Assembly (NCBI GenBank): GCA_964436715.1
Contig: CAYTEK010000002.1
Coordinates: 4,282-68,281 of the forward strand
From: an uncultured Verrucomicrobiota bacterium
Lineage (GTDB): Bacteria > Verrucomicrobiota > Kiritimatiellia > CAIQIC01 > Lenti-01
Reading direction: 5' to 3'
DNA: 64,000 bases
Position 1 is the first letter of the stretch. The number at the start of each line of letters is the position of its first letter. The notes below the pieces were generated by a model. The model did not search any database. It saw nothing but the letters and a program-made list of their open reading frames with translations, and was not told the DNA's origin. Shown here piece by piece: positions 6,930 through 60,200 of this stretch. The position numbers and the translations under genes are program-made.

Positions 6930-6938
6930 GGCGGAACC

Positions 6939-43807: not shown

Positions 43808-43810
43808 GGG

Positions 43811-45124: not shown

Positions 45125-47268
45125 CCCTGGGTCGGCGGCGGCGTTTCGGCCGGCTGGCTTTGGTAATACCGATAGGCATAGCCGCCGTAGCGCCGGTAAT
45201 AATAATAGTTGGCCATGGAATTGAGATTGACCCCGTTCAGGATGCTGCCGAGGCAAGGCGTGCCGCTTTCCCGCAGCTTGAGCGCCGCGTGGCTCGCGCC
45301 CAGGCTGTGCGTGACGCCGTAGCGCACCACGAACAGCACGCCGTCCACGTCCGGCAGCAGGACGAGCGAATCGCTGACGCCGAGCACCGGCGGCGCATCG
45401 ACGATGACGTGCTCGTAGACTTCCTTCGCTTCCCGCAGGAAATCGGACAACGCGCGCCGCCCCAGCAGTTCGGCCGGATGCGACGGAATCCGGCCCGACA
45501 ACAGCACGTCGAGATTCGGCACGTCGTTCTTGAACAGCGCCGCCTGCCACCGGACTTTTTCCTGCAGCACGTCGGCCAACCCCGCGCCTTCGCGATCGCC
45601 GCCGAAGATCTTGGTCAAGGCGGGCCGCCGCAGATCGGCGCCGACCAGCAGCGTGCGCCGGCCGTCCTGCGCGAGGCTGACGGCCAGATTGGCGGACACG
45701 AGGGATTTGCCCTCGCCCGGCCCCGCGCTGGTGACCATCAGGACGGGCGCGTTGCGCACGTCCTCCCGCAAGAGCAGGCTGGCGCGCAGGGTGCGGAACG
45801 CCTCGGCCGTTTCGCCGGTCCGCTTGAGATGGGCGACCAAGCCGCGCTCGCGATCGGTCTTGTCGTAGATCAGCGGAATCGTGGCCAGCACGGGCAGGCC
45901 CAGCAGGCGTTCGACTTCCTCGTTGCGGCGGAAGCGATGATCGGCGTAGTAGAACAGGAAGATCGCGCCCAATCCGAGGATCAGGCCGAAGGCGGCGCCA
46001 CGCACCGCGGCCTGGCCGAGCCGCGGGCGGAACGGCGCCTTCGCGGGCCGGGCCTCTTCGGCCAGCCGGATGACGTCGGTCGGCATCGACTCGGAGATGC
46101 TGGCCTCCTTCATGCGCGCGATGACGGCCTGGTGGATTTCCTGGTCGGCCTCGATGTTGCGCTTGAGTTCGTTGTAGCGCACGAGCTTGCGATCCAGTTC
46201 GAACGCCGCCCGTTCCTGTTCCTGCAGCGCGGTCTGGAGCCCCTTCTCCCGTTCGACCAGCATCTCGTAGCGGCTTTTCAGCGCATAGAGGGCGTCGGTG
46301 CAAGCGTCTTCGAACTGCTTCTTGAACTTCTCTTCCAACTCAACCGCCTGCTGCAGGTCGGGATGCCGATCGCGATAGCGCTGCTGCAAGCCGGCGACCT
46401 CGCGCTGCTGTTCCTGCAGCTTCTGGAGCGCCGTTTGGACGGCCAGGTCGTTCAGCACCGCCGCGATCTGGGTCAACGGCGTCCGCGCGTCGATCTGCGC
46501 CTGCACGGATTTCCACATGGTTTCGGCCTGGATGCGATCCGTCTGCGCCGACGTCAACGCGCCGTTCAAGGCCTTGAGCTTCTCGATGACGATGTTTTGG
46601 TCTTCCTCGAGGGAAACCGACCCGGTCTGCTCGCGATATTCCTGGAGTTCGAGCAGGCCCTTTTCCAGCTTCTCGCGGTATTCCTCCGAACGCTCGCGAA
46701 GCCAATCGACGGCCTGCATGGAAGCGCCCATGCGGTTGTCGAGATCCTGCTGGATGTAGGACTGCGCCAAGGCGTTGGCCAGGTTGGCGGCCAGTTGCGG
46801 ATCCGAATGCTCGACGACGATGTTGATCATCCGGCTCTTCTCGACGGCGGTGAGGGTGACGAACCCCTGCGCGATCTCGATTTTTTCGTCCGCCGTCTTG
46901 CCGGGCAGGAAGCGCGGATCCTGCGCCAGCCCGCTGCGCTCCAGCGCCTGGGCCATCATGTTGCGGCTGTGCAGGGCGTTGAGGTGGGTGTTGAAATATT
47001 CCAGGTTGCGCGTGTTGTAGGCCAGCACGTCCTGGTAATTGAGGATCTTGGGAATCTGCGCCTCGACCAGCAGCGTGGCGGTGCTGCGATAGCAGGGCGT
47101 CTGGCGCCGGGCCTGGAAGAAGAACGCCAGGAAGACGAGGGACGCGATCAACACGCCCAGCCAGGCGCGCTCCATGAGAATGGCGACGCCTTCCCGCCAA
47201 TCGGGGAATTTCGAAAGCGGGCCGTCCGCGCTTTCCGCTTCGCCGGCGACGTATGGAGTTTTGCTCAT
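45121..47268 (-). CDS. wzc: Polysaccharide co-polymerase with C-terminal BY-kinase (Wzc/GumC/EpsB-like tyrosine autokinase)
   Basis: N-terminal TM, long coiled coil and second TM, then 'VTSAGPGEGKSLVSANLA' Walker A, 'VIVDAPPV' Walker B, and a C-terminal Tyr cluster 'YYYYRRYGGYAYRYYQ'. Confidence 0.85.
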   Translation of the reverse strand: MSKTPYVAGEAESADGPLSKFPDWREGVAILMERAWLGVLIASLVFLAFFFQARRQTPCYRSTATLLVEAQIPKILNYQDVLAYNTRNLEYFNTHLNALHSRNMMAQALERSGLAQDPRFLPGKTADEKIEIAQGFVTLTAVEKSRMINIVVEHSDPQLAANLANALAQSYIQQDLDNRMGASMQAVDWLRERSEEYREKLEKGLLELQEYREQTGSVSLEEDQNIVIEKLKALNGALTSAQTDRIQAETMWKSVQAQIDARTPLTQIAAVLNDLAVQTALQKLQEQQREVAGLQQRYRDRHPDLQQAVELEEKFKKQFEDACTDALYALKSRYEMLVEREKGLQTALQEQERAAFELDRKLVRYNELKRNIEADQEIHQAVIARMKEASISESMPTDVIRLAEEARPAKAPFRPRLGQAAVRGAAFGLILGLGAIFLFYYADHRFRRNEEVERLLGLPVLATIPLIYDKTDRERGLVAHLKRTGETAEAFRTLRASLLLREDVRNAPVLMVTSAGPGEGKSLVSANLAVSLAQDGRRTLLVGADLRRPALTKIFGGDREGAGLADVLQEKVRWQAALFKNDVPNLDVLLSGRIPSHPAELLGRRALSDFLREAKEVYEHVIVDAPPVLGVSDSLVLLPDVDGVLFVVRYGVTHSLGASHAALKLRESGTPCLGSILNGVNLNSMANYYYYRRYGGYAYRYYQSQPAETPPPTQG

Positions 47269-47284
47269 CGTTCGCTCCCGTCCG

Positions 47285-48079
47285 TCAGAAAAACACTTCC
47301 GGCACCATGACGACGTCGTTGGGCTCCAGCGGCACGTCCTGTTGCTTGCCTTTGCCGTCCAGCAGGTCCGACACGCGAATCTTCAGCGTGGTTTGGCGGC
47401 CATTCGGCAATTTCCGGACGATGCGGACGCGATCGGGGCTGGCGAGATCGGTGAAGCCCCCCGCCCCGGCGATCGCCTGCAGCAAGGTCGTCGTGCCGCC
47501 GAAGGGCAGCGGATAGACGCCGGGCGCCTTGACCTCGCCCAACACGGTGATTTGCGAACTCTGCGTGGTCAGCAGCTTGACGATGACGCGCGGATTGACC
47601 AGGTAGTCCTGATCCAGTTTTTCGGCGATGAACGTCTCGGCCTCCGCGACCGTCTTGCCGGCCAAGGGGATCGCGCCCGCCAGCGAATGGCGGACGTCGC
47701 CCGCGGGATCGAGCTTGAACGTGCCGGACAGATCCGGCTCGCGATAGATCTGGAGATCGATTTCGTCGCCGGCTTGCAGCCGATATTCGACGGGCGCGGC
47801 CGCGGCCGCGGCGGGCGGCGCATCCTCCAGGTTGGCGGGCTTCGCGCGGGCGGCCTTCTTGGGGGTCGCATCGTTTTTCGCGGCGGCTCCGGCGACGCCT
47901 TGTGCGTCGCGCGCCGGCGCGGAAGTTTCCGCCGGCATCCCGGACGCAGGCGCGGCGCCCAAGAACCCGTCCGGCGGCCGCGGCCGCGTCTCGCCGGCGC
48001 ACCCCGTCAACCAAGCCAAGACCAGAACCGTCCCCCAGAGCGTGCGCCCATGGCCCAATCTGTTCAAGCGATGCGGCAT
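47285..48079 (-). CDS. wza: Polysaccharide export outer-membrane lipoprotein (Wza/OPX family: Poly_export + SLBB)
   Basis: Lipobox 'LAWLTGC'. 'YRLQAGDEIDLQIYREPDLSG' is the Poly_export motif; 'LGEVKAPGVYPLP...TLLQAIAGAGG' is SLBB. Confidence 0.8.
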   Translation of the reverse strand: MPHRLNRLGHGRTLWGTVLVLAWLTGCAGETRPRPPDGFLGAAPASGMPAETSAPARDAQGVAGAAAKNDATPKKAARAKPANLEDAPPAAAAAAPVEYRLQAGDEIDLQIYREPDLSGTFKLDPAGDVRHSLAGAIPLAGKTVAEAETFIAEKLDQDYLVNPRVIVKLLTTQSSQITVLGEVKAPGVYPLPFGGTTTLLQAIAGAGGFTDLASPDRVRIVRKLPNGRQTTLKIRVSDLLDGKGKQQDVPLEPNDVVMVPEVFF

Positions 48080-48135
48080 GCGGTTTTCTATAGCACGATC
48101 GTTCCGAAAAGAAAACGCCGGAATGCGGCCGGCTT

Positions 48136-49413
48136 TCAATAATTCCAGCTGGCGCGCAGCGACCAGCGGCCTTGTTCGTAGGAATTCGCTTCCTGCGACT
48201 CCTCGTCGCCGTCCACGTCGCCGTCGCGGCGCATGTAGGAATAGGCCGCACCGACGGAGAAGCGGTCCTTGCTCCACCAATCCACGCCGAGCGAGAAGCC
48301 CCAGTAGCGATCGGTCCGGCCATCCCAATCTTCATCCGCGGCCGCGTCGCCGCCGGAATAATCGATTTGCCCGAACGTGGCCGACGCGGTCCCGCGCAAG
48401 CGTTCGGTGAACAGGCGGCGCGTGGCGCCGAACACCGCGCCTTGGTCCACCACGTCGGTGGCATCCGCATCGACGGCCGGCCGGACGTCCGCATGGAGCT
48501 CGCCGGTGAACGTGGTCAGACCGAACGGCGAACTCTCGGCCCGCAGCGAGGCGATCCAGTGCGCATAGTCGCCGCGTTCCTCCGCGTCGTAGGCGCGCCA
48601 CATGTAGCCCAGCCGCCCCGTGGCGTTGAACTTGGGCGACTGCTTGCCGCGCAGGCCCAGCGACAGGTCGCAGAAATCGGCGGCGGCGGCCGAATCCGCG
48701 CGCCGCGGATCGTCGCGGCCGGCGCCGGCTTGGGCGAACAGCTGGCTCTTGCCCGACACGCGGTGATACAGCCGGCCCGCGCCATAGTAGCGGTTGTAGT
48801 CCAGATAGCTGTCCGCGTCGAATTCGTGGATTTCCACATTGCCCTGCAGCCCGACGCTGGACTTGCCCGAAATCCGATGCTCCGCGGACAGGTCGCCGAT
48901 CCAGTCCCGCTTGGACACTCGTGCGCCCACCACGGTGTCCACGTCTTCCAGCCGGCGGTAGCCCAGCTGGGCCTGGAGCTGGCTCTTGCCGGTGCGGAAG
49001 ACGCTGCCCAGCCGCAGCAGGTGGCTGGGATCGTCGCTCGCGTCGTCTTCGCTGTCGTAGATCGGCAGGATCAGGCCGTAGTCGGCGTAGACGTGGTTGC
49101 CCGCCGGCCGGCCCCAGATCGCCAGCAGTCCCGGCACCAGCGCCGCGGTCGTGCGTTCCGTGCCGTTGGACGGATCGAGAAACACGTTGTCGTCGCGCTC
49201 GAACACCACGCTCGCGCGCGGCAGCAGCGCGCCGGTCCGCGCCGGCACGTAGAACGGCTCGGCCACCGGGCCGCCCTGGTCGATGGCGGCCGCGGCATCG
49301 ACGCCGCGCGTGTAGAAGCCGGAGGCGTAGCTGTCGTCCGCGGCCCGGGCGGCGCCGGCCGCCCAAACCGCGGCGAGCGCCGCCAGCCTTCCGATGGCAC
49401 CCGCGCACCGCAT
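48136..49413 (-). CDS. Outer-membrane beta-barrel protein (EPS-locus associated, EpsL-like?)
   Basis: Signal peptide 'MRCAGAIGRLAALAAVWAAGAARAADDS'. Alternating beta-strand pattern and a C-terminal '...SLRASWNY' aromatic terminus. Confidence 0.55.
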   Translation of the reverse strand: MRCAGAIGRLAALAAVWAAGAARAADDSYASGFYTRGVDAAAAIDQGGPVAEPFYVPARTGALLPRASVVFERDDNVFLDPSNGTERTTAALVPGLLAIWGRPAGNHVYADYGLILPIYDSEDDASDDPSHLLRLGSVFRTGKSQLQAQLGYRRLEDVDTVVGARVSKRDWIGDLSAEHRISGKSSVGLQGNVEIHEFDADSYLDYNRYYGAGRLYHRVSGKSQLFAQAGAGRDDPRRADSAAAADFCDLSLGLRGKQSPKFNATGRLGYMWRAYDAEERGDYAHWIASLRAESSPFGLTTFTGELHADVRPAVDADATDVVDQGAVFGATRRLFTERLRGTASATFGQIDYSGGDAAADEDWDGRTDRYWGFSLGVDWWSKDRFSVGAAYSYMRRDGDVDGDEESQEANSYEQGRWSLRASWNY

Positions 49414-49415
49414 CG

Positions 49416-51305
49416 TCAGGGAGCTTCCTCGAAGCGGAAGGCCTGGATCAGCTCCACTTCCCCTTCATCGTAGGGGATGCCATCGTCCTTCAGCACGTTC
49501 TGCTGCCACCGATCGGGATGCGTCGCCGACCGGAACGCCTTCTGCTGCACTTGCAGCTGCGTCTTGCCGGCCACGAGGCCGCAGTTGAACCAGCCCACCT
49601 GGCGGGCGGCGAACACGGGCAGCACCTGCGCGAAATCGCTGCCCGTCTGCCGCATCAGCCAATCGGAACAAACGATGGGCCGGCGATAGCGCTGCAACAG
49701 CTCGATCCGCGCCTCGAGGCCTTCGGCGCCTTCGAAGCTGTGGAAGGTGACGAGGTCGGACCGCTCGAGCTTGCGGGCGGCCATCGCGCTGCCGAATTCC
49801 TTCCAGGCGGGCACGGCCAGCGGCTGGGCGGGATCGACGTCGCGGGCCCAGTTGAAGACCTGGTCCAGCAGCGGCAGGCTTTGCTCCCACAGGCCGCCGT
49901 TGCCGGCCGTGTTGTAGAGATCCCAATACAAGACGCGTTCGTCGCGCTTGAACGCGCCCACCACGTCCCGGAGATATTTTTCCAGTTGGGGCCAGGCGGC
50001 GCGATCCTTCACCGCGTCCGGCGCCGGACTGGGCACCCAGCGGGCGTTGTATTCGCCGGCGACCGGTTCGGGCTGCGGGCCGACCTGCGGCCCCTGCCCC
50101 GCCAGATTCAAATCGTCGAACAGCACGGGCACGACGCGCAGGTCGTGCTTCGCGGCCAATTCGAGCAGGCGCTCCACCCGCCGGAGAAAACCGTCCGGAT
50201 CGGCCTGCCAAACGGCATATTGAAGCTGGACGCGAATGGCGGTGTAGCCGACGTCCTGCGCCCAGCCGAGTTCCTGGTCGATCGTGTCGGGATCGAAGGT
50301 GTCGGCCATCCACATTTCGACCGAATTCACCGCGGTGCGCGGAACGTAATTGACGCCTTTGACCGGGCCGAGCTTCTCGTACCAGGCCCAAATGCGCGGC
50401 TCGTCCCAGCGTCCGCCGGGTTCGCCCGCCTGGGCGCGCGGCCTCCGCGCGGGCCGGGTCGCCGCCACGGAAGGCCGAATCGTGGGGCTGGCGTCCGTCA
50501 CCAGCGCGCCGTCGTCCAGCGCGACGAAATCCGACGCCAGGCCCAGATATTCGCCCAAACCCTCCCGGTCGAACGACCGATCGCGGTGCAGGAACGGCTC
50601 CAGATCGGCGAAGAAGGCGTTGCAAAGCTCGAACTGGAACCACGCGGCGTTCGCGGCGTCGTTTTCGGCCTGCGTTTCGACCTGCGGGCCTTCGACGACG
50701 AACCGGATCGCCTCGCCGGATTTCAGTTCGACGCGTTCGCCGCCGCGCGGCGCAACGGAGAGTTCGTAGGCCTCGCTCGCGACGTGCCAGCCTTGGCGGT
50801 CGTCCTGCGCCACGGCAAACGTGCCGCCCTGGGCCGCGATCGCGCCGTCCGCCGTCTCGACGCGGACGTCCAGCGAAGGCGTCGGCGCCCCCGCATGCAC
50901 GCGCAGGCCGCCGCGGAGCAACCGCACGTGGATGCGGCGCACCAAATCGTCCTCGCTCTCCGGCAGCCCGTCGGCCGTGTGGCGCAATTCGTCGATGGCC
51001 AGTTCGGAGTTCGGCGCCACGCAGAGAATCGCGCCCGGCGAGCAGACCAGGCACAGGCGACCGTCCTTGCCCGTGGTCACGCGGACGTTTTCGCCCATGG
51101 CCGCGCCTTCGAACAGATCCCGCAGCTCGGAGCGACCTTCGTGCATGGGCGCGGTGAACACGCGCACCTGCGCCGTCCCGGTCATGGCCGCGACGATGGC
51201 CTCGCCCGCGTTCTCGGCTGCCGCGGCCGACCCAACGCCGAACCCCGCGGCAAACGCGACCGCCACCAGCCGTCCTGCCCGAAAAACGATGCTTGTGTTG
51301 TTCAT
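49416..51305 (-). CDS. Secreted glycoside hydrolase (GH5/cellulase-superfamily TIM barrel) with N-terminal beta-rich domain
   Basis: Signal peptide. 'GVNYVPRTAVNSVEMWMADTFDPDTIDQELGWAQDVGYTAIRVQL' and '...LYWDLYNTAGN' match GH5-type (beta/alpha)8 hydrolases. Confidence 0.6.
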   Translation of the reverse strand: MNNTSIVFRAGRLVAVAFAAGFGVGSAAAAENAGEAIVAAMTGTAQVRVFTAPMHEGRSELRDLFEGAAMGENVRVTTGKDGRLCLVCSPGAILCVAPNSELAIDELRHTADGLPESEDDLVRRIHVRLLRGGLRVHAGAPTPSLDVRVETADGAIAAQGGTFAVAQDDRQGWHVASEAYELSVAPRGGERVELKSGEAIRFVVEGPQVETQAENDAANAAWFQFELCNAFFADLEPFLHRDRSFDREGLGEYLGLASDFVALDDGALVTDASPTIRPSVAATRPARRPRAQAGEPGGRWDEPRIWAWYEKLGPVKGVNYVPRTAVNSVEMWMADTFDPDTIDQELGWAQDVGYTAIRVQLQYAVWQADPDGFLRRVERLLELAAKHDLRVVPVLFDDLNLAGQGPQVGPQPEPVAGEYNARWVPSPAPDAVKDRAAWPQLEKYLRDVVGAFKRDERVLYWDLYNTAGNGGLWEQSLPLLDQVFNWARDVDPAQPLAVPAWKEFGSAMAARKLERSDLVTFHSFEGAEGLEARIELLQRYRRPIVCSDWLMRQTGSDFAQVLPVFAARQVGWFNCGLVAGKTQLQVQQKAFRSATHPDRWQQNVLKDDGIPYDEGEVELIQAFRFEEAP

Positions 51306-51332: not shown

Positions 51333-51797
51333 ATGTCGTTGCCCGCACCCGAATCCCGCGAAATCGTCGAGGCGCTCCTGCGCCAGCGCACGCGCGTTGC
51401 CTTCCGCGCCCAGGGTCCCAGCATGAATCCGACCATTCGCGACGGAGAGACCGTTTTCGTCCGCCCCGCGGACGCGAACGCCTTCCACATTGGAAGCGTT
51501 GTACTGTATCGAACGTCCGGCCGTTTGGCACTTCACAGAATCGCTTTTAACGATAAACGAACAAAACGGCTGTTTCTGGTCGGAGACGCTGCCGTCGCCG
51601 GCGGCGAATGGATTCCGGCCGCCGACGTGATCGGCCTCGCGGAAGGACTGCGCCGCAACGACGCCGTCCGCCGGCTGGACGCCTTCGGCCGCCGCTTGGC
51701 GGGCCGCCTGCGCTTCGCCTTGCGCCCGCTGCGCCGCGCGCTCTGGAATTTCCGCCAGACGCATCATGCGCAAACTCCGGCCCGCGGGGATTCCTGA
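51333..51797 (+). CDS. S24/S26-type (LexA/signal-peptidase-like) serine peptidase
   Basis: 'RAQGPSMNPTIRDGETVFVRP' nucleophile motif and a downstream Lys. The 3' end overlaps the convergent kinase gene by 34 nt. Confidence 0.5.
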   Translation: MSLPAPESREIVEALLRQRTRVAFRAQGPSMNPTIRDGETVFVRPADANAFHIGSVVLYRTSGRLALHRIAFNDKRTKRLFLVGDAAVAGGEWIPAADVIGLAEGLRRNDAVRRLDAFGRRLAGRLRFALRPLRRALWNFRQTHHAQTPARGDS

Positions 51798-52663
51798 AGT
51801 TCCGCCGCCGCCCGCACCGCGTCCGGCGTTTTCGTGAAATGCAGCCGGGCGACGGCGACCTCGCGCACCAGGCGATCCAGCCCGTCCAGAATTCCCTGCG
51901 ACCACTCTTCCTCGAACCACGGCACCGCCGCCACGTCCAGCAGAGCCAGGCGCGATTGGGCGGCGGTCATCGGTTCCGCGCGATCCTGCGCGTCCTGTTT
52001 CAGGAACGCGATCCCGCCCAGCGGCACTTCCGCCGCTTCGGCGAAGCGTCCCGATCCCGGCCACGGCGTGCCGGCCACCCGCCAAGCGGCGCCGCGGCGG
52101 AACACCGCGACGCGATCGTCGTTGAGAATCCGCCAGCCGGCATCCCGCAGCAACGCCGACATCGTGGATTTGCCCGCGCCGCTGCGGCCCGCGAACACCC
52201 AGCCCATCCCGTCTTTCACGGCCACCGCCGCATGCAGCAAGGCGCCGCCCATCTGCGACAGCAGGCCCCACGTCCAAATCTGGTCCACCGGATAGCGCAA
52301 CGGCGCCTCGCAAACGCCGGCACGCCACGCGGAAGCCGGCAGCGCCAGTTCCGCGCGCGTCAAGTCGCGCGCCACGCGGCCGATCATGCGCCGTTCCTCC
52401 GGCGCCCCCAAGCCGACGTGGACGACCAGATCCGCGCCGTCTTTCCAAGCCGCCCAATGGCGCCCCGCGCGCCAGAGCGGCGCGTCCGCGGGCGGCGCCG
52501 CGGTGCCGCAAACGATCTCCACCGGCAATTCGCGCAGCGGCGCGCCGCCGCCGGTGGAATAAAAAGCCGCATGGGGCGGCGCGCCATAGCGCACCGTCCC
52601 CGCGCACGCGGTCCGCAGCGCAAAGCGCAGCGGCCCGACGTCCAAATGCCCGGCGCCGGTCAC
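51764..52663 (-). CDS. HPr-kinase-related P-loop kinase (HprK C-terminal-domain-like)
   Basis: 'HAAVAVKDGMGWVFAGRSGAGKSTMSALL' is the HprK-type Walker A. The GTG start makes a GTGA overlap with the small ORF stop. Confidence 0.65.
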   Translation of the reverse strand: MTGAGHLDVGPLRFALRTACAGTVRYGAPPHAAFYSTGGGAPLRELPVEIVCGTAAPPADAPLWRAGRHWAAWKDGADLVVHVGLGAPEERRMIGRVARDLTRAELALPASAWRAGVCEAPLRYPVDQIWTWGLLSQMGGALLHAAVAVKDGMGWVFAGRSGAGKSTMSALLRDAGWRILNDDRVAVFRRGAAWRVAGTPWPGSGRFAEAAEVPLGGIAFLKQDAQDRAEPMTAAQSRLALLDVAAVPWFEEEWSQGILDGLDRLVREVAVARLHFTKTPDAVRAAAELQESPRAGVCA

Positions 52664-52845
52664 GAACCTCCCTCGTAGGCCACCACGGGCGGCCCCACGC
52701 AGCGGTAGTCGGCATCCAGCTTGCAGCCTTCGGACAACGTCTCCGCCAACGCCAGATCCACCCGTTGGATTTCCGGCTTTTCGTAGCGGGGGCGCGGGGC
52801 CGGACTCTCGTCGGGGGTGGAAATTCGTTCGCAATCCGGTTTCAT
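52660..52845 (-). CDS. Small ORF (61 aa), candidate precursor or partner peptide of the rSAM/PqqD/kinase cassette
   Basis: Strong RBS GGAGGAACGCC-ATG. The ATG overlaps the rSAM stop (ATGA) and the stop overlaps the kinase GTG (GTGA). Peptide: MKPDCERISTPDESPAPRPRYEKPEIQRVDLALAETLSEGCKLDADYRCVGPPVVAYEGGS. Confidence 0.4.
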   Translation of the reverse strand: MKPDCERISTPDESPAPRPRYEKPEIQRVDLALAETLSEGCKLDADYRCVGPPVVAYEGGS

Positions 52846-53936
52846 GGCGTTCCTCCGTTCCGGCGGCCCAGCGCCGCCGCATATCGCAATTCCGTCGTTT
52901 GCCGCATGTAATCCGACTCCCGTTCTTCGTCGCCCGTTTCCAGGCGGTTGAACGCGGGACAATGGACGCAGGCGCCGCGGCGTTCGCCGAACAGGCTGCC
53001 GTCCGTTTGCGTGCGCGTCCGGCGGCGGATGTCCGCCAAATCGCCGGCCCAGACTTCGCGGAACGGCCGACCGGCGGCGGCGCAGGCATAGGCCGTCGCC
53101 AGCAAACACGGCGTCAGGTTGCCGAACGGGTCGCAATGAAAGGACGTCCGGCCGGCCGCGCAGGCATACAATTGGTCGCCGGCGGGATGCGCGGCGGTTT
53201 TCTCGATCTTCTCGCGCCACATCCGGCGCCGCTCGGGCGTCGCCAGGTCCGCCCGCACCACTTCCTCCGGCGACACGCGCAGCGCCAGCGGCGCGCGCGA
53301 ACCGTCTTCCAGGCACGGAAAAATCGCCGCATCGTGCCGGAAAGTCGCGCCGCTGGCCGCGGCCTGCCGCTCCATTTCGGCGCGCTCGCCGCAATTGCCT
53401 TTCATCAAGACGGTTTTCAGCGCGACGCGCACGCCGGCCGCCTGCAGCCGGCGGATGCCCGCCCAGGCCCGCGCGTGCGAACCCGGCGCGCCGGTGATCG
53501 CGTCGTGGGTGGCCGCCGTCGCGCCGTAGAGGCTGATTTCCACCTTGCGCGGCGCCCATTCGCGGAACAGCCCCGCGATCTCGTCCGTGACGAGCGTCCC
53601 GTTGGTGAAGACGGTCACGACCAGGCCCAATTCGCGGGCCTGGCGATGGATCTCCGCGAAATCCGGCCGCAGCAAAGGTTCGCCGCCGGTGAGCGTGAGA
53701 TAGAGGCACCCCGCCTCGGCCCATTCGGCCAGCGCCGCCCGCACGGCGGCGGTGTCGAGTTCGCGCGGCTGGCGGCGACGTTGCTCCGCCTGGTCGCCCA
53801 GATAGCAGTGGACGCAGCGCAAGTTGCAGCGCCGCGTCAGTTCCAGCGTCGCGGCGATCGGTCGCCGCGCCGCGGCGGCGCGCAGGCGGAACGCTTCGGT
53901 CCAATCCCGGGGCCGGGAGTCGCTGGCGCGGTTCAT
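52842..53936 (-). CDS. Radical SAM enzyme with C-terminal SPASM domain (peptide-modifying maturase type)
   Basis: 'CNLRCVHC' CX3CX2C cluster, 'LTGGEPLL', and the SPASM cysteines 'CAAGRTSFHCDPFGNLTPC...GACVHCPAF'. Confidence 0.85.
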   Translation of the reverse strand: MNRASDSRPRDWTEAFRLRAAAARRPIAATLELTRRCNLRCVHCYLGDQAEQRRRQPRELDTAAVRAALAEWAEAGCLYLTLTGGEPLLRPDFAEIHRQARELGLVVTVFTNGTLVTDEIAGLFREWAPRKVEISLYGATAATHDAITGAPGSHARAWAGIRRLQAAGVRVALKTVLMKGNCGERAEMERQAAASGATFRHDAAIFPCLEDGSRAPLALRVSPEEVVRADLATPERRRMWREKIEKTAAHPAGDQLYACAAGRTSFHCDPFGNLTPCLLATAYACAAAGRPFREVWAGDLADIRRRTRTQTDGSLFGERRGACVHCPAFNRLETGDEERESDYMRQTTELRYAAALGRRNGGTP

Positions 53937-54226
53937 GCGCGCACCTCCTCCAGCAGCCGCTGAACCAGCAATTCGCCGGCGAATTCCCGGCAATCGGCCA
54001 GCGCCGCTTCCGGCGCGACGGCGAATTCGGCCGCCAGCGCCGCCGCCGTGGCGGCCAAGGTGCGGCCACCGGCCAAGGCATTCCAAATGAATTCGCCCGT
54101 CGCGTTGATCGGAAACACGCAGCCTTCCCGGGCGACGGCGCCCGACACCGGCACGAGCAGGCGGTCGGCGCCGATCCGGCGCACCACCACCTTGCCTGCC
54201 ACCTCGAATGTCGCCGCGTCGTTCAT
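53933..54226 (-). CDS. PqqD-family protein (RiPP recognition element/peptide chaperone)
   Basis: A ~97-aa protein, 'AGKVVVRRIGADRLLVPVSGAVAREGCVFPINATGEFIWNAL', with the PqqD fold pattern. ATGA overlap with the rSAM gene. Confidence 0.7.
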   Translation of the reverse strand: MNDAATFEVAGKVVVRRIGADRLLVPVSGAVAREGCVFPINATGEFIWNALAGGRTLAATAAALAAEFAVAPEAALADCREFAGELLVQRLLEEVRA

Positions 54227-54233
54227 TCCCGGT

Positions 54234-57200
54234 TTACTTCTTCTTGGCCTTGACGCCGATGAACACGCGCTCTGCCCACGGGCGGTTCACCCGCGTGCGC
54301 ACGGTTTCCATGACACCGTCGGCGTCCGGTTCCACGCCCAGCGTCTGGACGTCGTCCGGTTCCAGCGCCCATTCCTGCAGGTTTTCCGACACGAACAGCC
54401 GATAATCGACGTCGTTGCGCTGGACGCGCCGCTTCCAGCGCAAAACGAAGCCGGACTCGTCCGCTCCGCTGCCGTCCGCAGCCGACGGCGCGAATCCGAA
54501 CTCCGGCAACTCGGCTTCGACGGGGTTCTCGCCGTCGAGCGCGTAGTCGGCGAAATTCGCCGTCGTCGCGCCGCTGACGGCGGCGTTGGTCAGGTCGGCG
54601 GGCGCGAAGCGATCCCAGCGCCACTGGGCGAAATTGTCGGCGCCGGGCCGTTCGTCCACGTTGTCTGCGATCCGCAGCGCGGGATCGCCCAGCAGGTTGT
54701 AGACGGCGTAGGTGTCGTCGGCCAGCGTCTCCGGAGCCATGCGGCGCCGCGCCAGGAGAATCGCCCGGCCCAGCGTGCCCGCGCCTTCTTCCGTCACGGC
54801 GCGATAGAAGGCCGCGCCCAATTCCGCCGCGAATTCGTTGCGCGAGAGTCCGGCGGGCCCCCAGACCGCGACGGCTCCCCCGCCGGCCTTCCGCAGCAGG
54901 AGTTCGCCCAGGCTGTTCACGCCGGGCGCCTCGTACCGCCCGACCAGGCAGCTCAGCGCCACGACGATCGGCGGCCGATTGGGATTGTTCAGGCCGGCGA
55001 CGTCCGCCGCCTTGAGCAGGTTCAGCTTGCTCCAGTTCGCGACGCCGCCGTGGCCCGTGTAGTGGATGAAGCCCGCGCCGCTGTTGAAATAGGCCAGCAG
55101 CTTGTTGCGCGCGGGCGTGATGGCCGTGGCGTTGAGATCGACGACGTCCGCCAGCGGATGCTTGGCGTCGGCCAACGCGGCGAGGCGCTCGTTGGCGGCC
55201 TTGAAGTCGCCCGCGGCGGCGTCGTTGACGTCGTTGGCGAGCACGATCTGGTTCTGCCAGTTCTGGCCGAAGCCGGCTTCGTAGGCCTTGATCTTCGCGA
55301 TCATCGCCGCGAGGTCGTTCGTCGTCAGCGCCGGCAAGCGGCCGATGGCGACGTCCGGCAATTCGTCGCCGCCGACGTCCGCCAGCCGTTCGTCGGCGGC
55401 GAAGAGGCCGTCGCTGCCCGCGAACAGCAGCGGCGGCAGGTGATTCACTTCGTTGCTGAGCGCGTTCAAATAGTCGTAGTGGCCGTTGCCCGCCAGCAGG
55501 ACCATCCACGGCGCCTCCGCCCAGCTGCCCGCGGCGTAGGCCAGCAGCTCCGGAATCGCTTCGGGCGTGCGCAGGCCGCCGGCCAGCAGGTCGCACACGT
55601 CTTCGAACGCCGCCACGCCGACGCGCAGGCCTTGCGCGGCGCGGTAGTCCGTCAGTTCCCGCACCGCGTTGGTGAAGGCGCGCGGCGCCACGACGAGATA
55701 GTCGATCCGGTTCGTTTCGGACAGGAACCACGCCTCCGCCGCCGCGGCGACCGGCGCCAGCGACGGAATGCCGTCTGCTTCGGCCAAGGCGAAGCGCGCG
55801 TCGTCGGCCGTCGCCGCCCAGGCCTTCGCCGGCAGTTCGCCGTTTTCGTCGGCGATCCACGTCGCCCCGCCGTCCCGGTCCAGCGCGACCGCCAGCGGTT
55901 CCGCGTACGCCGCCGCCGAAATCGCGGTGCCGGCCGGCGCCGCGAAATGCGCCGTGCCGGGGCTCGCAACGAGCGTCCGGTCGTAGGTCGCCGTGAAGCC
56001 GTCCACGACGAAGTAGTTCAGGTTGGTGGGCTCCCGGCAGCTCACCGCCAGCACGTTCGTCCCGTCGAACGCGACGCCCGCGGGCACGTCCAGCTCGGCC
56101 GCGAACGTTTCCTGGCCTTCGAATTCGGCCGTGCCCACCGGCACGCCGTTCAGGGCGAACGCCACGAGATGGTCCGGGTTCCGCGCCGCGACCTGCAGCC
56201 AGCCGATCAGGTCCACCGCCAGCGTCAGCGCGCCGCCGCCGTTGCCGGTCAGGACGAACGGAAATTCCGCCTGGTTCGCAGCCGCGTTGGTCGAATTCAT
56301 CACGAACTTCCAATAGTAGAAGTCGTCCGGTTTCGCCGTCACGGCGGTGTTGCCCGGATAGCGGTCCTCCTCGAAACGGATGGACGTCGCGAAGACGGCG
56401 GCGCCGCCGCCCGCGCCCGGGGCGCGCCGCGGCATGGCCAGTCCGCGGCCTTCGTAGATCAGGTAGGCGTTGTCGCGCGCGTACCAGTTGGCCGCCGGCC
56501 CGCCGTGGAAGACCAGCCGGTCGCGCGCCGCGTCGAAGAGCGTCGGCACCAGCCGGCCGGCGCCGAACACGCACAGCGCGTTCGACGCCGCCAGGGCGCG
56601 GATCTCGTCCGCCGGCCGGCCCATGCCGGCCGCGACGTCCGCCAGCGCCACGCCGTAGAGGCCTTCTGCGCCCACGGTCGTCTTCAGGACGGACGAAGGC
56701 CCGCGGTCTTCCTCCGTGCCCAGCCAGAGCGAAGCCGCCGCGTTCTTCGGCGCCGGCCGCGGCGCGCCGAACGTCGCCGCATGGACGCCCAGATCCAGGC
56801 GCGTGCCCGACAGTTCCAGTTCTTCGAGGCGATACGTGCCCGTGCCGCGCGCGCAGGCGGCCGGATCCTTCTGCCGATACGTCGCGCCCGTTTCGTTGAA
56901 CGCGGCCGGCACCGGCTGTTCGTTCAGCAACGTCTCCGCGCCGGTTTCCGGATCGATCCGGTAGACGAAGAAGCCCGCCGTGTTCCACTCCGAACTCGTG
57001 CGCCACACCACCTGGCCGCCGGTTTCCGTCCACTCGCCCCAGACCTCGGCGACTTCCGCGCGGGTGGAATTCAGGCTGGCGAAACCGAAATCCACCGTCC
57101 GATTGGTCGTGCCGGCCGACACGGCGAACGGCGCCGTTTCGAAGTGGCCGGCCGTCGCGCCGTTGGTCGCATCGCTGTCCTGGGCGTCGTCGCCGCCCGC

Positions 57201-60200
57201 ATTGGCCGTCGTCGCAACGACATTCGACGAAATGTCCGTCATGTCGAAGCGCACCCGGTAGGTGCCGCTGGCCAAACCCGCGAACAGGTAGGTGCCCGTG
57301 CTGTCGGTGTTGGTCGTGCGCAGCACGTTGCCGGCGGCGTCGAGCAGCGCCACGGGCAGGTTGGCGATGAAATGGGCCTCGGCCGCGTCCTGGATCCCGT
57401 TGCCGTTGTCGTCGAACCAAACCCGGTCGCCGATGGCCGCCCCGCCCTTCGGCACGATGACCACCGCGCTGCTGTCGTTGCTGGCCACGGGATCGTACAG
57501 GTCGCGGCCCGAGATCGCGGCCACGTTGGTGATCGACATCCCCGAGGTGTTTTCGCGCACGGTGACGTTGATGTAGAGCGTCGTCGCGGCGTTCGCGGCC
57601 AACGTGCCGATCGTCCACGCGCCGGTGCCCGCGTTGTAATTTCCGTTCGAATGGCCGTTGTACTGGAGCTGCGCCGGCAGGACGTCGGCGATCTGCACGC
57701 CCGTCGCCGCGTTCGGCCCGCGGTTGGTCGCCACCAGCACGTATTCGATGATCTGCACCGGATCGGGCGCGTTGGTCGTGACGTACTTGCTCACGCCCAC
57801 GTCGGCGAATTGCACGCAATTCGTGACGGCAGCGTAGATCGCCGGCTGGACCGCGCTGAAGGCCGAAGCCTCATTCAGCAGCTGCGTCGTCGTCGCGGGC
57901 GAACTCACGACCGCCTGCACGGTGACGGTCGCGGATTGGCTGTTGGTCAGCCGCAGATTGACCAGCAGGTTCGGCGGCGGACCCGCCGTCGCCAGCGTGC
58001 CGCCCGCCCACGTCACGCTGCCGGTCACGTAGGCCAAGCCGCTCGGCAGCGGATCGTAGAGCGCGATGCCCGTTTGCGTCACCGTGCCGGTGTTCTGGAC
58101 GACCAGCGTGTAGGTGATCGCGTTGCCGACGGTCAAGCAGGAGCCGGCGCTGGACGTCTTGGTCAGCCGCAGCCCGCGGACGATCGCGGCGAACCCCGCA
58201 TCCCGGCTCGCGTCGGTCGTGCCCGGCGGCAGATAGAACGCCGCCGTGGAGCCGGTGGCCGGCGAAACGTCGCTGTCCGCCGCGTCGCTGCCGCCCTGGT
58301 CTTGCAGGGTGTAGGTGTAGTTGCTGGGCGCGGCGAACTGCAGGAAATAGGTGCCGACCGTCAGGTTCGAGAAGGCATAGGCGCCGGTCGCCGACGACGT
58401 GGTCACGCCCACCGCGTTCGAAGCCGCGTCGTAGAGCGTCACCACCACGCCCGGCATTCCCGTTTCGCTGCCGCCGTCCTGGAGGCCGTCGCCGTCCACG
58501 TCGCGCCAGACGAAATCGCCGATCGCGGAAGACGGCTGGTAGAAGCCCGCGTCGCGGGTCGCGTCGTTCGTTCCGCCGCTCAAGGCAAAGACCGCCGTGC
58601 GCCCCGTGTTGGTGCTGATGTCGCTGTCCAGCGCGTCGTCCCCGCCCTGGTCCTGCGCCGTGGCCAGATAGTTCGACGGCGTGGCGAATTCGAGAAAATA
58701 GGAACCGCTTGGCAGATTCGTGAAGGCGTAGGCGCCGTCCACGCCGGACGTTGCGGTCAGCAGCAGGTTCGAAACGGCGTCGTACAGCCGCACCGTCGCG
58801 CCGGCGATGCCGGGTTCCACGCCGCTTTGCAGGCCGTTGCCGTCCACGTCGTGCCAGACGACGTCCCCCACCCGATTGGCCGCGGAATAATTGGTGGCCG
58901 CGGCGGTCGCCGGCGCGGTCTGGGCATTGGTCGCCGTGGCGACGTTGACGAGCTGGGTGGCCGCCAGCGGCACGCCCAGCGTGCCGCGCACGCGCACGGT
59001 GACGCTCGAACCCGGCGGCAGCGAACAATCGACCAGCAGGTTCGTCAAGTCCGCCGTCAGGTTCGACACGACGACGATCTGCGACGCGTTGCTGTATTGG
59101 GCCACGACGTTGGTGACCACGTCGAAGCCCCGGTTGGTGAACGTGACGAAGTCGAAATTGATCCGATCGCCGGTGTTGAAATTGCCCCCCGCCCTCAGCC
59201 GCAGGCCCATGTTGGCGGACATCCACGTGGTGACGTTGGTGGTGACCGCGACGTAGCCGGCATCGGTGCCGTCGGTCGTCGGCACGGCGAAGACCTGGGT
59301 TTGCGCGGCGAAGTTGTTGGTCGAGAGGTAGACGGTCAGCGTATCGCCGGCGTCCCAGTTCTCGCGGCGGTAGGCCAAGCTCAGGGTCACGTTGGTGTAG
59401 GTGCGGCCGGCCCGCGTCGTGGCCAACTGGTTGCTGCGCGTGACCGAATCGTTGTCGGCATTGGTGTTTTCGAACACCAGGGCGTTGGTGCCGCCGACCG
59501 TGCGAATCAATTCGCTGCCGGTGGTCGCGTTGCCGTTGTCGCCCGTTTCGATCCAGTTGCCGAACCAGTTGGTCGTGCCGTCGTTGTTGTTGTAGGCCGC
59601 CGTGGAAAAAGCGTCGGACACCGTCTCCGCGAAGGCATTGGTCGTCACCGTCTCGAACTGGACGAGCGCGGCGCCGTTGGGCGCGAAATTCACGCCGGCG
59701 GGCAAGGCGTCGGTCAGCTGGATGCCCACCAAGGTGACCGTGCCCGTGTTTTCGATCGTGAGGTAGTAATCGTTGGTGGCGCCGTAGTTCCAGTTCGTGG
59801 CCAGCGCCGAAACCTTGGTCAGCCGCATGCCGATGTTGCCCGAGGCGGCATTCGTCACGCGCGCCGTGATCCACGTCGTCTGCTGGTCGCTCAGCAGCCG
59901 CGCCGCGTTGACGAATTCCGTCGCCGTGATCGGATCGTCCACCGTCGCCGTCAGATAGACGGTCATGTTCGTGCCCGGCGGCAGCGCGTAGTCGTCCAGC
60001 AGGAGCGGCGGATCCGGCAGCGCGTTGGTGGCGTTGGCCGCCGACGCCGCGATGCGCACGTTGTCCAGCCAGACGACGTCGTTCGCGTCGCGCGAGGCGT
60101 TGCCGCCGAACCGGATCACCGTGCCCGTCGAGGCATAGGCCGAAACGTCGAACGTGGCCGTGAAATAGGAACCGTCGTTCGTGGCCCCGCCGATCTGGCC

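What the first reader, a model, noticed from the sequence alone, without database searches (positions are those of the whole stretch)
52660..52845. Unannotated 61-aa ORF with strong Shine-Dalgarno wedged between rSAM and kinase
GGAGGAACGCC-ATG sits inside the rSAM gene's last codons. Both ends overlap their neighbours by exactly 4 nt, the same coupling grammar used throughout the adjacent 26-kb operon. The peptide (MKPDCERISTPDESPAPRPRYEKPEIQRVDLALAETLSEGCKLDADYRCVGPPVVAYEGGS) has three Cys, a Pro-rich N-terminal half, and a Gly-Gly-Ser C-terminus. Short ORFs like this are routinely missed by gene callers in high-GC genomes.
Basis: seen in the sequence. Interest (0 to 1): 0.7.

Follow-up and report, generated by a model that had tools for sequence, protein, structure and literature searches.

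The report
Conserved precursor peptide in radical-SAM cassette
The 61-codon ORF is a real, conserved gene, most likely the substrate peptide of an uncharacterised peptide-modifying cassette (chaperone, radical-SAM enzyme, HPr-kinase-like enzyme, small peptidase) that always lies next to a giant surface protein and polysaccharide-export genes.

Summary
The ORF is on the minus strand, 52660..52845, exactly as described. It has a GGAGGA box 5 nt upstream, an ATGA overlap with the radical-SAM gene and a GTGA overlap with the kinase-like gene.

An ORF of this size means nothing by itself, because the window holds 285 ORFs of at least 61 aa. The evidence that it codes:
- The codon-position GC signal switches into its frame.
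- More than 220 homologues of 45-72 aa exist, 89 clusters at 50% identity.
- dN/dS is 0.02-0.5 at near-saturated synonymous sites.
- Loci fetched through the kinase alone also carry the ORF.

The peptide has three parts: a variable N-terminus, a conserved leader (PYxKPxIxRVDLALAETL) and a core of about 21 aa (GCK...C...GS-COOH). Of 117 family members, 116 end in Ser or Thr.

The neighbours are a PqqD chaperone, a radical-SAM enzyme with four conserved C-terminal Cys, an HPr-kinase-fold ScmC protein and a convergent S24/S26 peptidase.

Best reading: a RiPP precursor, Cys-crosslinked, phosphorylated on its last Ser and freed from its leader. The chemistry is inferred, not shown.

The peptide matches no Pfam or NCBIfam model, and I found no paper on it. 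The kinase does not start further upstream. Only two of the three Cys are conserved. I rate it a new variant of a known kind.

The parts
52660..52845 (-). Gene for the 61-aa peptide (stop codon included): MKPDCERISTPDESPAPRPRYEKPEIQRVDLALAETLSEGCKLDADYRCVGPPVVAYEGGS
   Evidence: Sequence and translation. Frame-specific GC3. 31 close homologues, then 224 homologues. 89 clusters at 50% identity. dN/dS well below 1.
52851..52856 (-). Shine-Dalgarno-like GGAGGA, 5 nt upstream of the ATG, inside the rSAM coding sequence
   Evidence: A purine-rich GGAG/GGAA/AAGG box sits at the same distance in 12 of the 13 orthologous loci checked; L033 lacks it.
52735..52794 (-). Codons 18-37, the conserved leader RPRYEKPEIQRVDLALAETL, presumed docking site for the PqqD chaperone
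   Evidence: Y21, P24, R28 and D30-L37 are invariant in the close set (A1). P24 and L31 are invariant, and Y21, E35, L37 at least 90% conserved, across 91 diverse members (A3). The motif resembles the WKKPELEVLNV leader of a Paenibacillus lasso-type precursor.
52663..52734 (-). Codons 38-61, the presumed core SEG-CKLDADYRCVGPPVVAYEGGS, with invariant C41, K42, C49, G60, S61
   Evidence: Of 117 members, 116 end in Ser or Thr and 106 end in GS. All have 2-3 Cys after the leader. Position -1 before CK is Gly in 106 of 116; position -3 is Ser, Gly or Ala in 113 of 116.
53933..54226 (-). PqqD-family protein, 97 aa (peptide chaperone, RRE type)
   Evidence: Pfam PqqD 47.5 bits against cut-off 23.4. 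Weak NCBIfam matches to the lasso PqqD chaperone and to ScmD. Present in every related locus.
52842..53936 (-). Radical-SAM peptide-modifying enzyme, 364 aa, with CxxxCxxC and a shortened SPASM/twitch-like C-terminal domain (four conserved Cys)
   Evidence: Pfam Radical_SAM 91 bits. Matches to MftC, PqqE, ScmE/F and sactipeptide maturases all fall below their family cut-offs. Nearest solved relatives are SkfB and PqqE. Cys pattern.
51764..52663 (-). ScmC-family protein, 299 aa, GTG start, HPr-kinase/PEPCK-fold P-loop enzyme (presumed peptide Ser kinase)
   Evidence: Weak NCBIfam matches to HprK_rel_A and ScmC. Homologues carry Pfam PF27840 ScmC. H144, GRSGAGKST and NDDR are invariant and align to HprK/P 2qmh and 1jb1. 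AF2 model pLDDT 93; Foldseek returns PEPCK and HprK/P.
51333..51797 (+). S24/S26-type Ser-Lys peptidase, 154 aa, with GPSMNPT and KRLFLVGD motifs. It is convergent and overlaps the ScmC 3' end by 34 nt. Presumed leader peptidase.
   Evidence: Pfam Peptidase_S24 30.3 bits against cut-off 23.3, and a weak match to archaeal-type signal peptidase I. Conserved in all related loci, on the same strand as ScmC in Nitrospira and Thiolapillus.
54234..63596 (-). Giant surface protein of about 3120 aa (SdrD_B and DUF11 repeats, C-terminal PorU-like Peptidase_C25 domain), a constant neighbour of the cassette. Its start is not fixed.
   Evidence: A C25-domain protein lies beside the cassette in every GCK-family locus that has enough flank.
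49416..51305 (-). 629-aa protein with a FecR domain, a conserved neighbour
   Evidence: Pfam FecR 28.9 bits against cut-off 24. Conserved in L001-L015, L032 and L034.
48136..49413 (-). Outer-membrane beta-barrel protein, 425 aa, distantly EpsL/BBP2-like, a conserved neighbour
   Evidence: Homologues carry Pfam BBP2_2. Conservation.
41712..47268 (-). Polysaccharide assembly and export genes downstream in the same orientation: Wzc-like (45121..47268), Wzy_C (43811..45124), ABC-2 permease (42971..43807), Wzt ATPase (41712..42974)
   Evidence: Same order in L001-L010, L012, L013 and L032.

Best explanation
The ORF is a translated gene for a ribosomally made precursor peptide (RiPP type) that the four small genes around it mature.

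**Shown here**
- The gene is real and under purifying selection.
- The peptide has a variable N-terminus, a strongly conserved leader (PYxKPxIxRVDLALAETL) and a short core, GCK...C...GS-COOH.
- Across distant lineages, and in at least one rearranged gene order (L034), it travels with four genes: a PqqD-family chaperone, a radical-SAM enzyme of the peptide-modifying SPASM/twitch group, an HPr-kinase-fold ScmC protein with intact P-loop and DD motifs, and an S24/S26 Ser-Lys peptidase.

**Inferred**
1. PqqD binds the leader and presents the core to the radical-SAM enzyme.
2. The radical-SAM enzyme modifies the core, most probably through crosslinks (thioethers) from the two invariant Cys.
3. ScmC phosphorylates the side chain of the invariant C-terminal Ser, as the HPr-kinase homologues of lasso-peptide clusters do.
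4. The S24/S26 peptidase removes the leader. The likely site is the small-x-small position [S/G/A]-x-G just before CK. The alternative is after ETL, which is the lasso register.
5. The product of about 21-24 residues acts together with the invariably adjacent C25-peptidase giant surface protein, FecR-domain protein, outer-membrane barrel and polysaccharide export genes, either as a surface or polysaccharide-associated modifier or as a signal.
For: **Coding**
- The frame-specific GC3 switch falls on the ORF.
- 31 close homologues of 59-63 aa.
- 89 clusters at 50% identity, nearly all 45-72 aa, and 224 proteins with the profile.
- dN/dS is 0.02-0.5 with pS 0.4-0.8 in codons 18-61.
- The start is pinned by in-frame stops just upstream in lower-GC orthologues.

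**Unbiased presence**
- Loci fetched with ScmC alone carry the ORF: L011-L016.

**Anatomy**
- Alignments and counts.

**Cassette**
- PqqD, rSAM, ScmC, S24 peptidase.
- Synteny, including the rearranged locus L034 and the Nitrospira and Thiolapillus loci.

**Kinase analogy**
- HPr-kinase homologues of lasso clusters phosphorylate the C-terminal Ser of linear precursors, which share little beyond that Ser (PMC8498205).
- A Paenibacillus violae lasso-type locus found with the ScmC query holds:
  - an ScmC-like protein (27% identity over 162 aa, E 1e-16);
  - a PqqD and an S24-like peptidase;
  - a 44-aa precursor, MKKEWKKPELEVLNV...TWS, that ends in Ser.
Against: - No chemistry was observed. Modification, phosphorylation and cleavage are all inferred.
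- The core is unusually conserved for an antimicrobial RiPP. That fits a cofactor-like or housekeeping product better.
- The radical-SAM enzyme scores below the cut-off of every named NCBIfam family, so its reaction is unknown.
- Similarity of ScmC to HprK/P covers only the P-loop core in sequence (about 57 residues), and the structural TM-scores are modest (0.27-0.5).
- One database entry, P0172 (257 aa), has the peptide frame fused to the rSAM C-terminus and diverging after SEG. It may be a broken copy or an assembly error.
- Two peptidases (S24/S26 and C25) are candidates for processing, and nothing tells them apart.
Confidence: 0.75

Rival explanations
1. The peptide is the precursor of a small cofactor-like or polysaccharide-linked moiety, as PqqA is for PQQ or MftA for mycofactocin, rather than a free bioactive peptide. 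In this reading the radical-SAM enzyme and the kinase work on the C-terminal Gly-Ser end. Only a small fragment, or a peptide conjugated to glycan through phospho-Ser, is the functional product.
For: - The best NCBIfam similarities of the rSAM are to the mycofactocin maturase MftC and to PqqE, and of the chaperone to PqqD.
- The core and the extreme C-terminus are highly conserved, as in PqqA and MftA (established knowledge).
- The cassette is constantly linked to Wzy_C, Wzc, Wza-like and ABC export genes.
- A related locus carries an NTP_transf_5 gene (L033), and so does the lasso-type locus L030. Phospho-Ser of the lasso peptide pseudomycoidin is glycosylated by such a nucleotidyltransferase (PMC8498205).
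Against: - All rSAM scores are far below the MftC and PqqE cut-offs (116 against 265, 80 against 381).
- None of the other PQQ or mycofactocin genes is annotated in the cassette or in the related loci.
- The two invariant Cys and the GCK motif have no counterpart in PqqA or MftA.
- The window cassette has no nucleotidyltransferase.
Confidence: 0.15
2. It is a lasso-peptide precursor. The leader has the lasso register (Tyr -17, Pro -14, Ile/Leu -12, Thr -2 if cleaved after L37), the core would start at Ser38 and close a ring on Asp7 or Asp9, and the C-terminal Ser would be phosphorylated as in paeninodin.
For: - Register counted from the sequence.
- The PqqD protein's best NCBIfam hit is the lasso PqqD chaperone.
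- An HPr-kinase-like gene plus a C-terminal Ser is the paeninodin pattern.
- Homology to the Paenibacillus lasso-type locus.
Against: - No Asn-synthetase-like cyclase and no transglutaminase-type B2 protease is annotated in the cassette or in any of the related loci that came with gene annotation.
- A radical-SAM enzyme sits in their place.
- The acidic residue at core positions 7-9 is not conserved in the family.
- Thr at -2 is replaced by Val in many members.
Confidence: 0.03
3. It is a small structural or regulatory protein, for example a subunit or inhibitor of ScmC or of the rSAM, or a partner of the FecR-domain protein, and is not itself modified.
For: - Conservation extends over the whole C-terminal two thirds.
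- There is one copy per locus.
- It is tightly coupled to its neighbours by 4-nt overlaps.
Against: - The combination of a variable N-terminus, a PqqD-type leader motif, a Cys-bearing tail and an invariant last Ser/Thr is the standard layout of a modified precursor.
- A PqqD chaperone has no known role without a peptide substrate (established knowledge of RRE domains).
- Length and sequence between the conserved Cys vary freely, 6 to 20 residues, which is unlike a folded protein.
Confidence: 0.05
4. It is a chance ORF in GC-rich DNA, or the 5' end of the kinase gene.
For: - The window has 285 ORFs of at least 61 aa.
- The kinase frame is open up to 53089, and the peptide frame up to 54081.
Against: - GC3 frame switch.
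- dN/dS well below 1.
- Conservation in genomes of 49-66% GC, where the alternative frames are closed.
- ScmC homologues are about 300 aa, and the aligned ones start at the same residue.
- Intergenic spacers separate the peptide and ScmC in L011, L013 and L016.
Confidence: 0.02

Closest known systems
SynChlorMet (Scm) cassette of NCBIfam/TIGRFAMs: ScmC (TIGR04249), ScmD (TIGR04248, PqqD-like), ScmE and ScmF (TIGR04250/1, radical SAM/SPASM); Pfam PF27840 ScmC
   Same: - An HprK-like ScmC-family protein, a PqqD-family protein and a PqqE-like radical-SAM enzyme are encoded side by side.
- Homologues of the window's kinase carry the Pfam ScmC domain.
- The window proteins give their weak NCBIfam matches to ScmC, ScmD, ScmE and ScmF.
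- The Scm cassette is uncharacterised. From my memory of the TIGRFAMs text, not checked here, no precursor was assigned to it.
   Different: - There is one radical-SAM gene, not two.
- All scores are far below the equivalog cut-offs: ScmC 36.5 against 125, ScmD 23.9 against 100, ScmF 90.7 and ScmE 80.3 against 400.
- Here the precursor is identified, and an S24/S26 peptidase, a C25 giant protein and polysaccharide genes are constant companions.
Phosphorylated lasso peptides (paeninodin type) with HPr-kinase homologues
   Same: - A PqqD-type chaperone and an HPr-kinase-like enzyme.
- A precursor that ends in Ser.
- A similar leader motif: aromatic-x-K-P-x-[LI]-x-x-[VL].
- In Paenibacillus violae, an S24-like peptidase as well.
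   Different: - No lasso cyclase and no B2 protease.
- A radical-SAM enzyme is the main modifying enzyme.
- Invariant Cys residues take the place of a ring-forming Asp or Glu.
Sactipeptides and ranthipeptides (for example SkfA/SkfB, subtilosin/AlbA, PapA/PapB)
   Same: - A Cys-bearing core.
- A radical-SAM enzyme with a SPASM/twitch-type auxiliary-cluster domain.
- SkfB is the nearest solved relative (E 1e-18).
   Different: - The chaperone is a separate PqqD protein, not an N-terminal domain of the enzyme.
- Only four conserved C-terminal Cys.
- A kinase and an S24/S26 peptidase belong to the cassette.
- The crosslink itself is not shown.
PQQ (PqqA/D/E) and mycofactocin (MftA/B/C) maturation
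   Same: The same three-part logic of small conserved peptide, PqqD-family chaperone and radical-SAM enzyme. The PqqA-like 'KP...L...E.T' flavour of the leader is my own comparison.
   Different: - Scores are below the family cut-offs.
- The modified residues differ: there is no Glu/Tyr pair and no C-terminal Val-Tyr.
- The accessory genes differ.

Membership tests
RiPP precursor served by a PqqD-family chaperone and a radical-SAM enzyme | A small ORF next to the chaperone and radical-SAM genes, on the same strand in nearly all loci, conserved as a unit | tested here: met
   Window layout. The same unit appears in more than 20 loci, including a rearranged one.
RiPP precursor served by a PqqD-family chaperone and a radical-SAM enzyme | Two-part peptide: a conserved leader for recognition and a core with the modifiable residues | tested here: met
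   A1 and A3 alignments and residue counts.
RiPP precursor served by a PqqD-family chaperone and a radical-SAM enzyme | The peptide is post-translationally modified and its leader is removed | not testable with these tools
   Needs mass spectrometry of the expressed product.
SynChlorMet cassette (NCBIfam equivalogs TIGR04248-04251) | ScmC and ScmD score above the curated cut-offs | tested here: not met
   ScmC 36.5 against 125 bits; ScmD 23.9 against 100 bits.
SynChlorMet cassette (NCBIfam equivalogs TIGR04248-04251) | Two radical-SAM/SPASM genes (ScmE and ScmF) | tested here: not met
   A single rSAM gene; ScmF 90.7 and ScmE 80.3 against 400 bits.
Pfam ScmC domain family (PF27840) | The kinase-like protein carries the ScmC domain | tested here: inconclusive
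   Homologues of 46-97% identity carry precomputed PF27840 hits. The local Pfam copy returned no PF27840 (ScmC) match for the window protein, even at E up to 1, so the window protein was not shown to carry the domain.
Lasso peptide | Asn-synthetase-like macrolactam cyclase (C protein) and transglutaminase-type leader protease (B2) | tested here: not met
   Absent from the cassette and from the annotated neighbourhoods of the related loci. Present, for comparison, in the Paenibacillus locus L030.
Lasso peptide | Leader with Tyr -17, Pro -14, Leu -12, Thr -2, and an acidic residue at core position 7-9 | tested here: inconclusive
   The register fits in the window peptide if it is cleaved after L37. 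Thr -2 and the acidic residue are not conserved in the wider family.
HPr-kinase-type peptide Ser kinase (as in paeninodin clusters) | HprK/P catalytic core: P-loop GxSGxGKS and the DD motif | tested here: met
   GRSGAGKST and NDDR are invariant and align to 2qmh and 1jb1. PEPCK/HprK fold from the AF2 model.
HPr-kinase-type peptide Ser kinase (as in paeninodin clusters) | The substrate peptide ends in Ser | tested here: met
   111 of 117 members end in Ser and 5 in Thr.
HPr-kinase-type peptide Ser kinase (as in paeninodin clusters) | Phosphotransfer to the C-terminal Ser | not testable with these tools
   Needs a kinase assay or MS.
Sactipeptide/ranthipeptide | Radical-SAM enzyme with an auxiliary-cluster (SPASM/twitch) domain, and Cys in the core | tested here: met
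   for the enzyme; for the Cys.
Sactipeptide/ranthipeptide | Cys sulfur to carbon thioether bridges in the product | not testable with these tools
   Needs MS/NMR.
PQQ or mycofactocin pathway | PqqE or MftC equivalog score, and the PqqA or MftA precursor signature | tested here: not met
   MftC 116 against 265 bits and PqqE 80 against 381 bits. The peptide matches no NCBIfam or Pfam model even at E up to 10.

The most novel reading that the evidence does not exclude
The cassette makes a Cys-bridged peptide that ends in phospho-Ser and is built into the cell surface. It would be joined through its terminal phospho-Ser to the exported polysaccharide, with the Wzy_C ligase-like enzyme of the operon as candidate. 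Or it would be joined to, or processed by, the PorU-like C25 domain of the giant adhesin. In this reading a RiPP is an obligatory structural part of a polysaccharide or adhesin assembly system in Kiritimatiellia, Nitrospira, Acidobacteriota and others, not a secreted toxin.
Probability: 0.12. Interest if true: 0.85.

Novelty: new variant of a known kind. Interest (0 to 1): 0.6.

Why it matters
- **A substrate for the ScmC proteins.** These proteins exist in databases only as a name, with no substrate and no function. In the searches done here I found no assigned precursor and no paper on them. This peptide family supplies a candidate substrate and concrete, testable predictions: −2 Da crosslink steps on C41 and C49, +80 Da on Ser61, and cleavage before CK.
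- **A wider role for HPr-kinase-like tailoring.** It extends the pairing of an HPr-kinase-like enzyme with a C-terminal Ser from lasso peptides to a radical-SAM pathway. The ScmC-like, PqqD and S24-like proteins may form an older module shared by both.
- **An unusual genomic setting.** The cassette is fixed beside a giant protein carrying a C25 peptidase domain and beside polysaccharide export genes, across several phyla. That points to a physiological role at the cell surface, which would be unusual for a RiPP.
- **A practical lesson for annotation.** The peptide and the convergent S24 peptidase are both easy to lose in high-GC DNA, where gene callers sometimes pick the antisense ORF.

Tried and rejected
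- **Family searches on the peptide.** Pfam and NCBIfam searches of the window peptide and four relatives found nothing relevant, even at E up to 10. The only hit was a chance-level DUF3088 match for one relative, E 0.26.
- **Literature.** Searches for SynChlorMet, ScmC, and HPr kinase with radical SAM, PqqD or RiPP found no paper on this cassette. They returned only lasso-kinase work and one 2014 genome-mining note.
- **Kinase starting upstream.** Rejected.
- **Lasso peptide.** Rejected for lack of a cyclase and a B2 protease.
- **RNA element or terminator in the interval.** Rfam gave only a chance-level miRNA hit outside the ORF. Promoter and terminator scans were at shuffle level.
- **Gene between ScmC and the FecR-like gene.** An ORF on the operon strand, called in some public assemblies (L010, L011, L013), is the antisense of the real S24 peptidase gene.
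- **Genome scan with the ScmC alignment.** The generic P-loop pattern swamped it and only 17 loci came back.
- **Organism names for distant members.** Cluster look-ups gave none.
- **My first guess at the Poly_export gene.** The frame 47265..48131 was wrong and gave no Pfam hit. From synteny the gene is probably 47285..48079; this was not verified.
Full report
**1. The observation**

The ORF lies on the minus strand, with ATG at 52845-52843 and TGA at 52662-52660. It encodes the quoted 61 residues.
- GGAGGA sits at 52856-52851, 5 nt before the ATG, within the last codons of the upstream radical-SAM gene.
- The ATG overlaps that gene's TGA (ATGA).
- The ORF's TGA overlaps the GTG of the downstream gene (GTGA).
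- The same 4-nt overlap joins PqqD/rSAM, Wzc-like/Wzy_C, ABC-2/Wzt and Wzt/next gene, but not all pairs in the operon.

The ORF is not remarkable by itself. The window is 68.6% GC and contains 285 ORFs of at least 61 aa, and the peptide's own frame stays open for 473 codons.

**2. Is it coding?**

- **Composition.** Codon-position GC is 0.66/0.52/0.76. A sliding plot shows the high-GC third position moving from the rSAM frame to the peptide frame in 52850-52715, and then to the kinase frame.
- **Homologues.** A search of 5.8 billion proteins found 31 homologues of 59-63 aa at 50-93% identity. A profile search of 1.84 billion cluster representatives found 89 clusters, nearly all 45-72 aa. A wider profile found 224 proteins. 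None has a Pfam domain or a name other than 'hypothetical protein'.
- **Selection.** In a codon alignment of 11 loci, synonymous sites are close to saturation (pS 0.4-0.8). Non-synonymous change in codons 18-61 is low (pN 0.07-0.38), giving dN/dS 0.02-0.5. Window against L001 shows 22.5 synonymous and 10.5 non-synonymous differences.
- **Start codon.** In lower-GC relatives, in-frame stops lie a few codons upstream of the ATG, which fixes the start. A purine-rich SD-like box sits at the same distance in 12 of the 13 orthologous loci checked; L033 lacks it.
- **Unbiased presence.** Loci retrieved through the kinase homologue alone, at 41-51% identity, all carry the small gene: L011-L015, plus a Nitrospira locus, L016.
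- **Kinase start.** About 120 homologues are roughly 300 aa long. The 19 aligned with the window protein match from their N-termini, M..aG.L.IGPLRF. In L011, L013 and L016 a spacer separates the two genes.

One database entry, P0172, shows the frame fused upstream and diverging after SEG. This is a possible broken copy or assembly error, and I could not resolve it.

**3. Anatomy of the peptide**

- Residues 1-17 vary freely, including the first Cys and the prolines.
- Y21, P24, R28, D30-L37, G40, C41, K42, C49, P52, G60 and S61 are invariant in the close set.
- Across 91 diverse members, P24, L31, C41, K42 and C49 are invariant. Y21, E35, L37, G60 and S61 are at least 90% conserved.

Counts from 117 members:

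| Feature | Count |
|---|---|
| End in Ser | 111 of 117 |
| End in Thr | 5 of 117 |
| End in GS | 106 of 117 |
| Gly immediately before CK | 106 of 116 |
| Ser, Gly or Ala three residues before CK | 113 of 116 |
| Two Cys from CK to the end | 90 of 116 |
| Three Cys from CK to the end | 26 of 116 |
| Length from CK to the end | median 21 aa (17-33) |

Spacing between the Cys varies from 6 to 20 residues.

A more distant subfamily, KPYxKP...CS...C...S-COOH, follows the rSAM gene in an Acidobacteriota locus and a Thiolapillus locus.

**4. The neighbours**

Upstream:
- A 97-aa PqqD-family protein at 53933..54226, Pfam 47.5 bits.
- The radical-SAM enzyme at 52842..53936. It has CxxxCxxC plus four conserved C-terminal Cys. 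Its nearest solved relatives are SkfB and PqqE. It scores below the cut-off of every named family.

Downstream:
- The ScmC-family protein at 51764..52663. H144, GRSGAGKST and NDDR are invariant and align with the HprK/P catalytic core. The AF2 model has pLDDT 93, and Foldseek returns PEP carboxykinase and HprK/P.
- On the opposite strand, overlapping the ScmC 3' end, a 154-aa S24/S26 Ser-Lys peptidase at 51333..51797. It carries GPSMNPT and KRLFLVGD and scores 30.3 bits on Pfam Peptidase_S24.

A tblastn map shows the C25-domain protein, PqqD, the rSAM, the peptide, ScmC and the S24 peptidase together in every GCK-family locus that has enough flank. That includes L034, where orientations are shuffled, and the Nitrospira locus. 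The FecR-domain protein and the outer-membrane barrel are present in most loci.

Downstream in the window lie Wzc-like, Wzy_C, ABC-2 and Wzt genes and glycosyltransferases. Upstream lies a roughly 3120-aa protein with SdrD_B and DUF11 repeats and a PorU-like C25 peptidase domain.

**5. Mechanism**

*Shown:* a conserved coding gene with a leader/core layout, tied to a chaperone, a peptide-type radical-SAM enzyme, a kinase-fold enzyme and a peptidase.

*Inferred:*
- PqqD binds the leader.
- The rSAM crosslinks through the two invariant Cys.
- ScmC phosphorylates the terminal Ser.
- The S24/S26 enzyme cuts at the small-x-small site before CK, or after ETL.

Two things support the kinase step. First, published work shows that HPr-kinase homologues in lasso clusters phosphorylate the C-terminal Ser of linear precursors, which share little beyond that Ser (PMC8498205).

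Second, there is a link found here. The ScmC query pulled out a Paenibacillus violae lasso-type locus with:
- an ScmC-like protein (27% identity over 162 aa);
- a PqqD, an S24-like peptidase and NTP_transf_5;
- an Asn-synthase-type cyclase;
- a 44-aa precursor, MKKEWKKPELEVLNV...TWS, whose leader resembles YEKPEIQRVDL and which ends in Ser.

**6. Comparison with known systems**

- **SynChlorMet cassette.** This is the closest named entity, but its equivalog cut-offs are not met and it has two rSAM genes.
- **Lasso peptide.** It is not one, because no cyclase or B2 protease is annotated in the cassette or the related loci.
- **Sactipeptides and ranthipeptides.** It shares the enzyme type and the Cys-bearing core.
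- **PQQ and mycofactocin.** It shares the three-part logic.
- **Literature.** No paper on this peptide family or on ScmC was found.

**7. Verdict**

The ORF is best described as the precursor peptide of an uncharacterised radical-SAM/ScmC maturation cassette that is widespread in uncultured Kiritimatiellia-like bacteria and present in other phyla.

It is a new variant of a known kind. The chemistry and the biological role are open, above all the meaning of the constant link to a C25 giant surface protein and to polysaccharide export. That link is the most interesting part.

Noticed in passing
window 51333..51797 (+): An S24/S26-type peptidase gene runs convergent to the operon and overlaps the ScmC 3' end by 34 nt. 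In several public assemblies (L010, L011, L013) the gene caller annotated the antisense ORF on the operon strand instead.
   Followed up: yes
window 54234..63596 (-): A protein of about 3120 aa with SdrD_B and DUF11 repeats and a C-terminal PorU-like Peptidase_C25 (type IX sortase-like) domain. A C25-domain protein lies beside the cassette in every related locus with enough flank, including Nitrospira and Vicinamibacteria. Its role is unknown.
   Followed up: partly
L030 1858..9773 (Paenibacillus violae): A lasso-type cluster with two HprK-like genes, PqqD, an S24-like peptidase in the place where a B2 protease would be expected, NTP_transf_5 and an Asn-synthase cyclase. It also has a 44-aa precursor that ends in Ser, with a WKKPELEVLNV leader. 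The ScmC-like, PqqD and S24-like proteins are homologous to the window's.
   Followed up: partly
L018 9823..10089; L021 9808..9999: A divergent peptide subfamily, ...KPYxKP...(A/V)CS...C...S-COOH, lies directly after the rSAM gene in an Acidobacteriota locus and a Thiolapillus locus. There the gene order is ScmC-PqqD-rSAM-peptide.
   Followed up: partly
L016 5994..7586 (Nitrospira MAG): PqqD appears fused to the N-terminus of the rSAM. The rSAM reading frame is split into two ORFs (5994..7160 and 7157..7435), which suggests a frameshift or a sequencing error.
   Followed up: no
protein P0172 (257 aa, metagenome): A database protein in which the rSAM C-terminus runs in frame into the peptide homologue and the sequence diverges after ...AETLSEG. 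It is either a disrupted copy of the peptide gene or an assembly artefact.
   Followed up: no
window 52660..54081 (-) and 51764..53089 (-): The peptide frame and the kinase frame both stay open far upstream through the rSAM gene (473 and 441 codons). This is typical of high-GC DNA and a trap for start-site assignment.
   Followed up: yes
L033 10912..12186: In a distant relative of the cassette, an NTP_transf_5 nucleotidyltransferase, a methyltransferase and glycosyltransferases follow the cassette. This nucleotidyltransferase family accompanies HprK-like kinases in phosphoglycosylated lasso peptides.
   Followed up: no
window 49416..51305 (-) and 48136..49413 (-): A 629-aa protein with only a FecR domain recognisable, followed by a 425-aa outer-membrane barrel distantly like EpsL. 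The pair is conserved with the cassette in most loci, and its function is unknown.
   Followed up: partly
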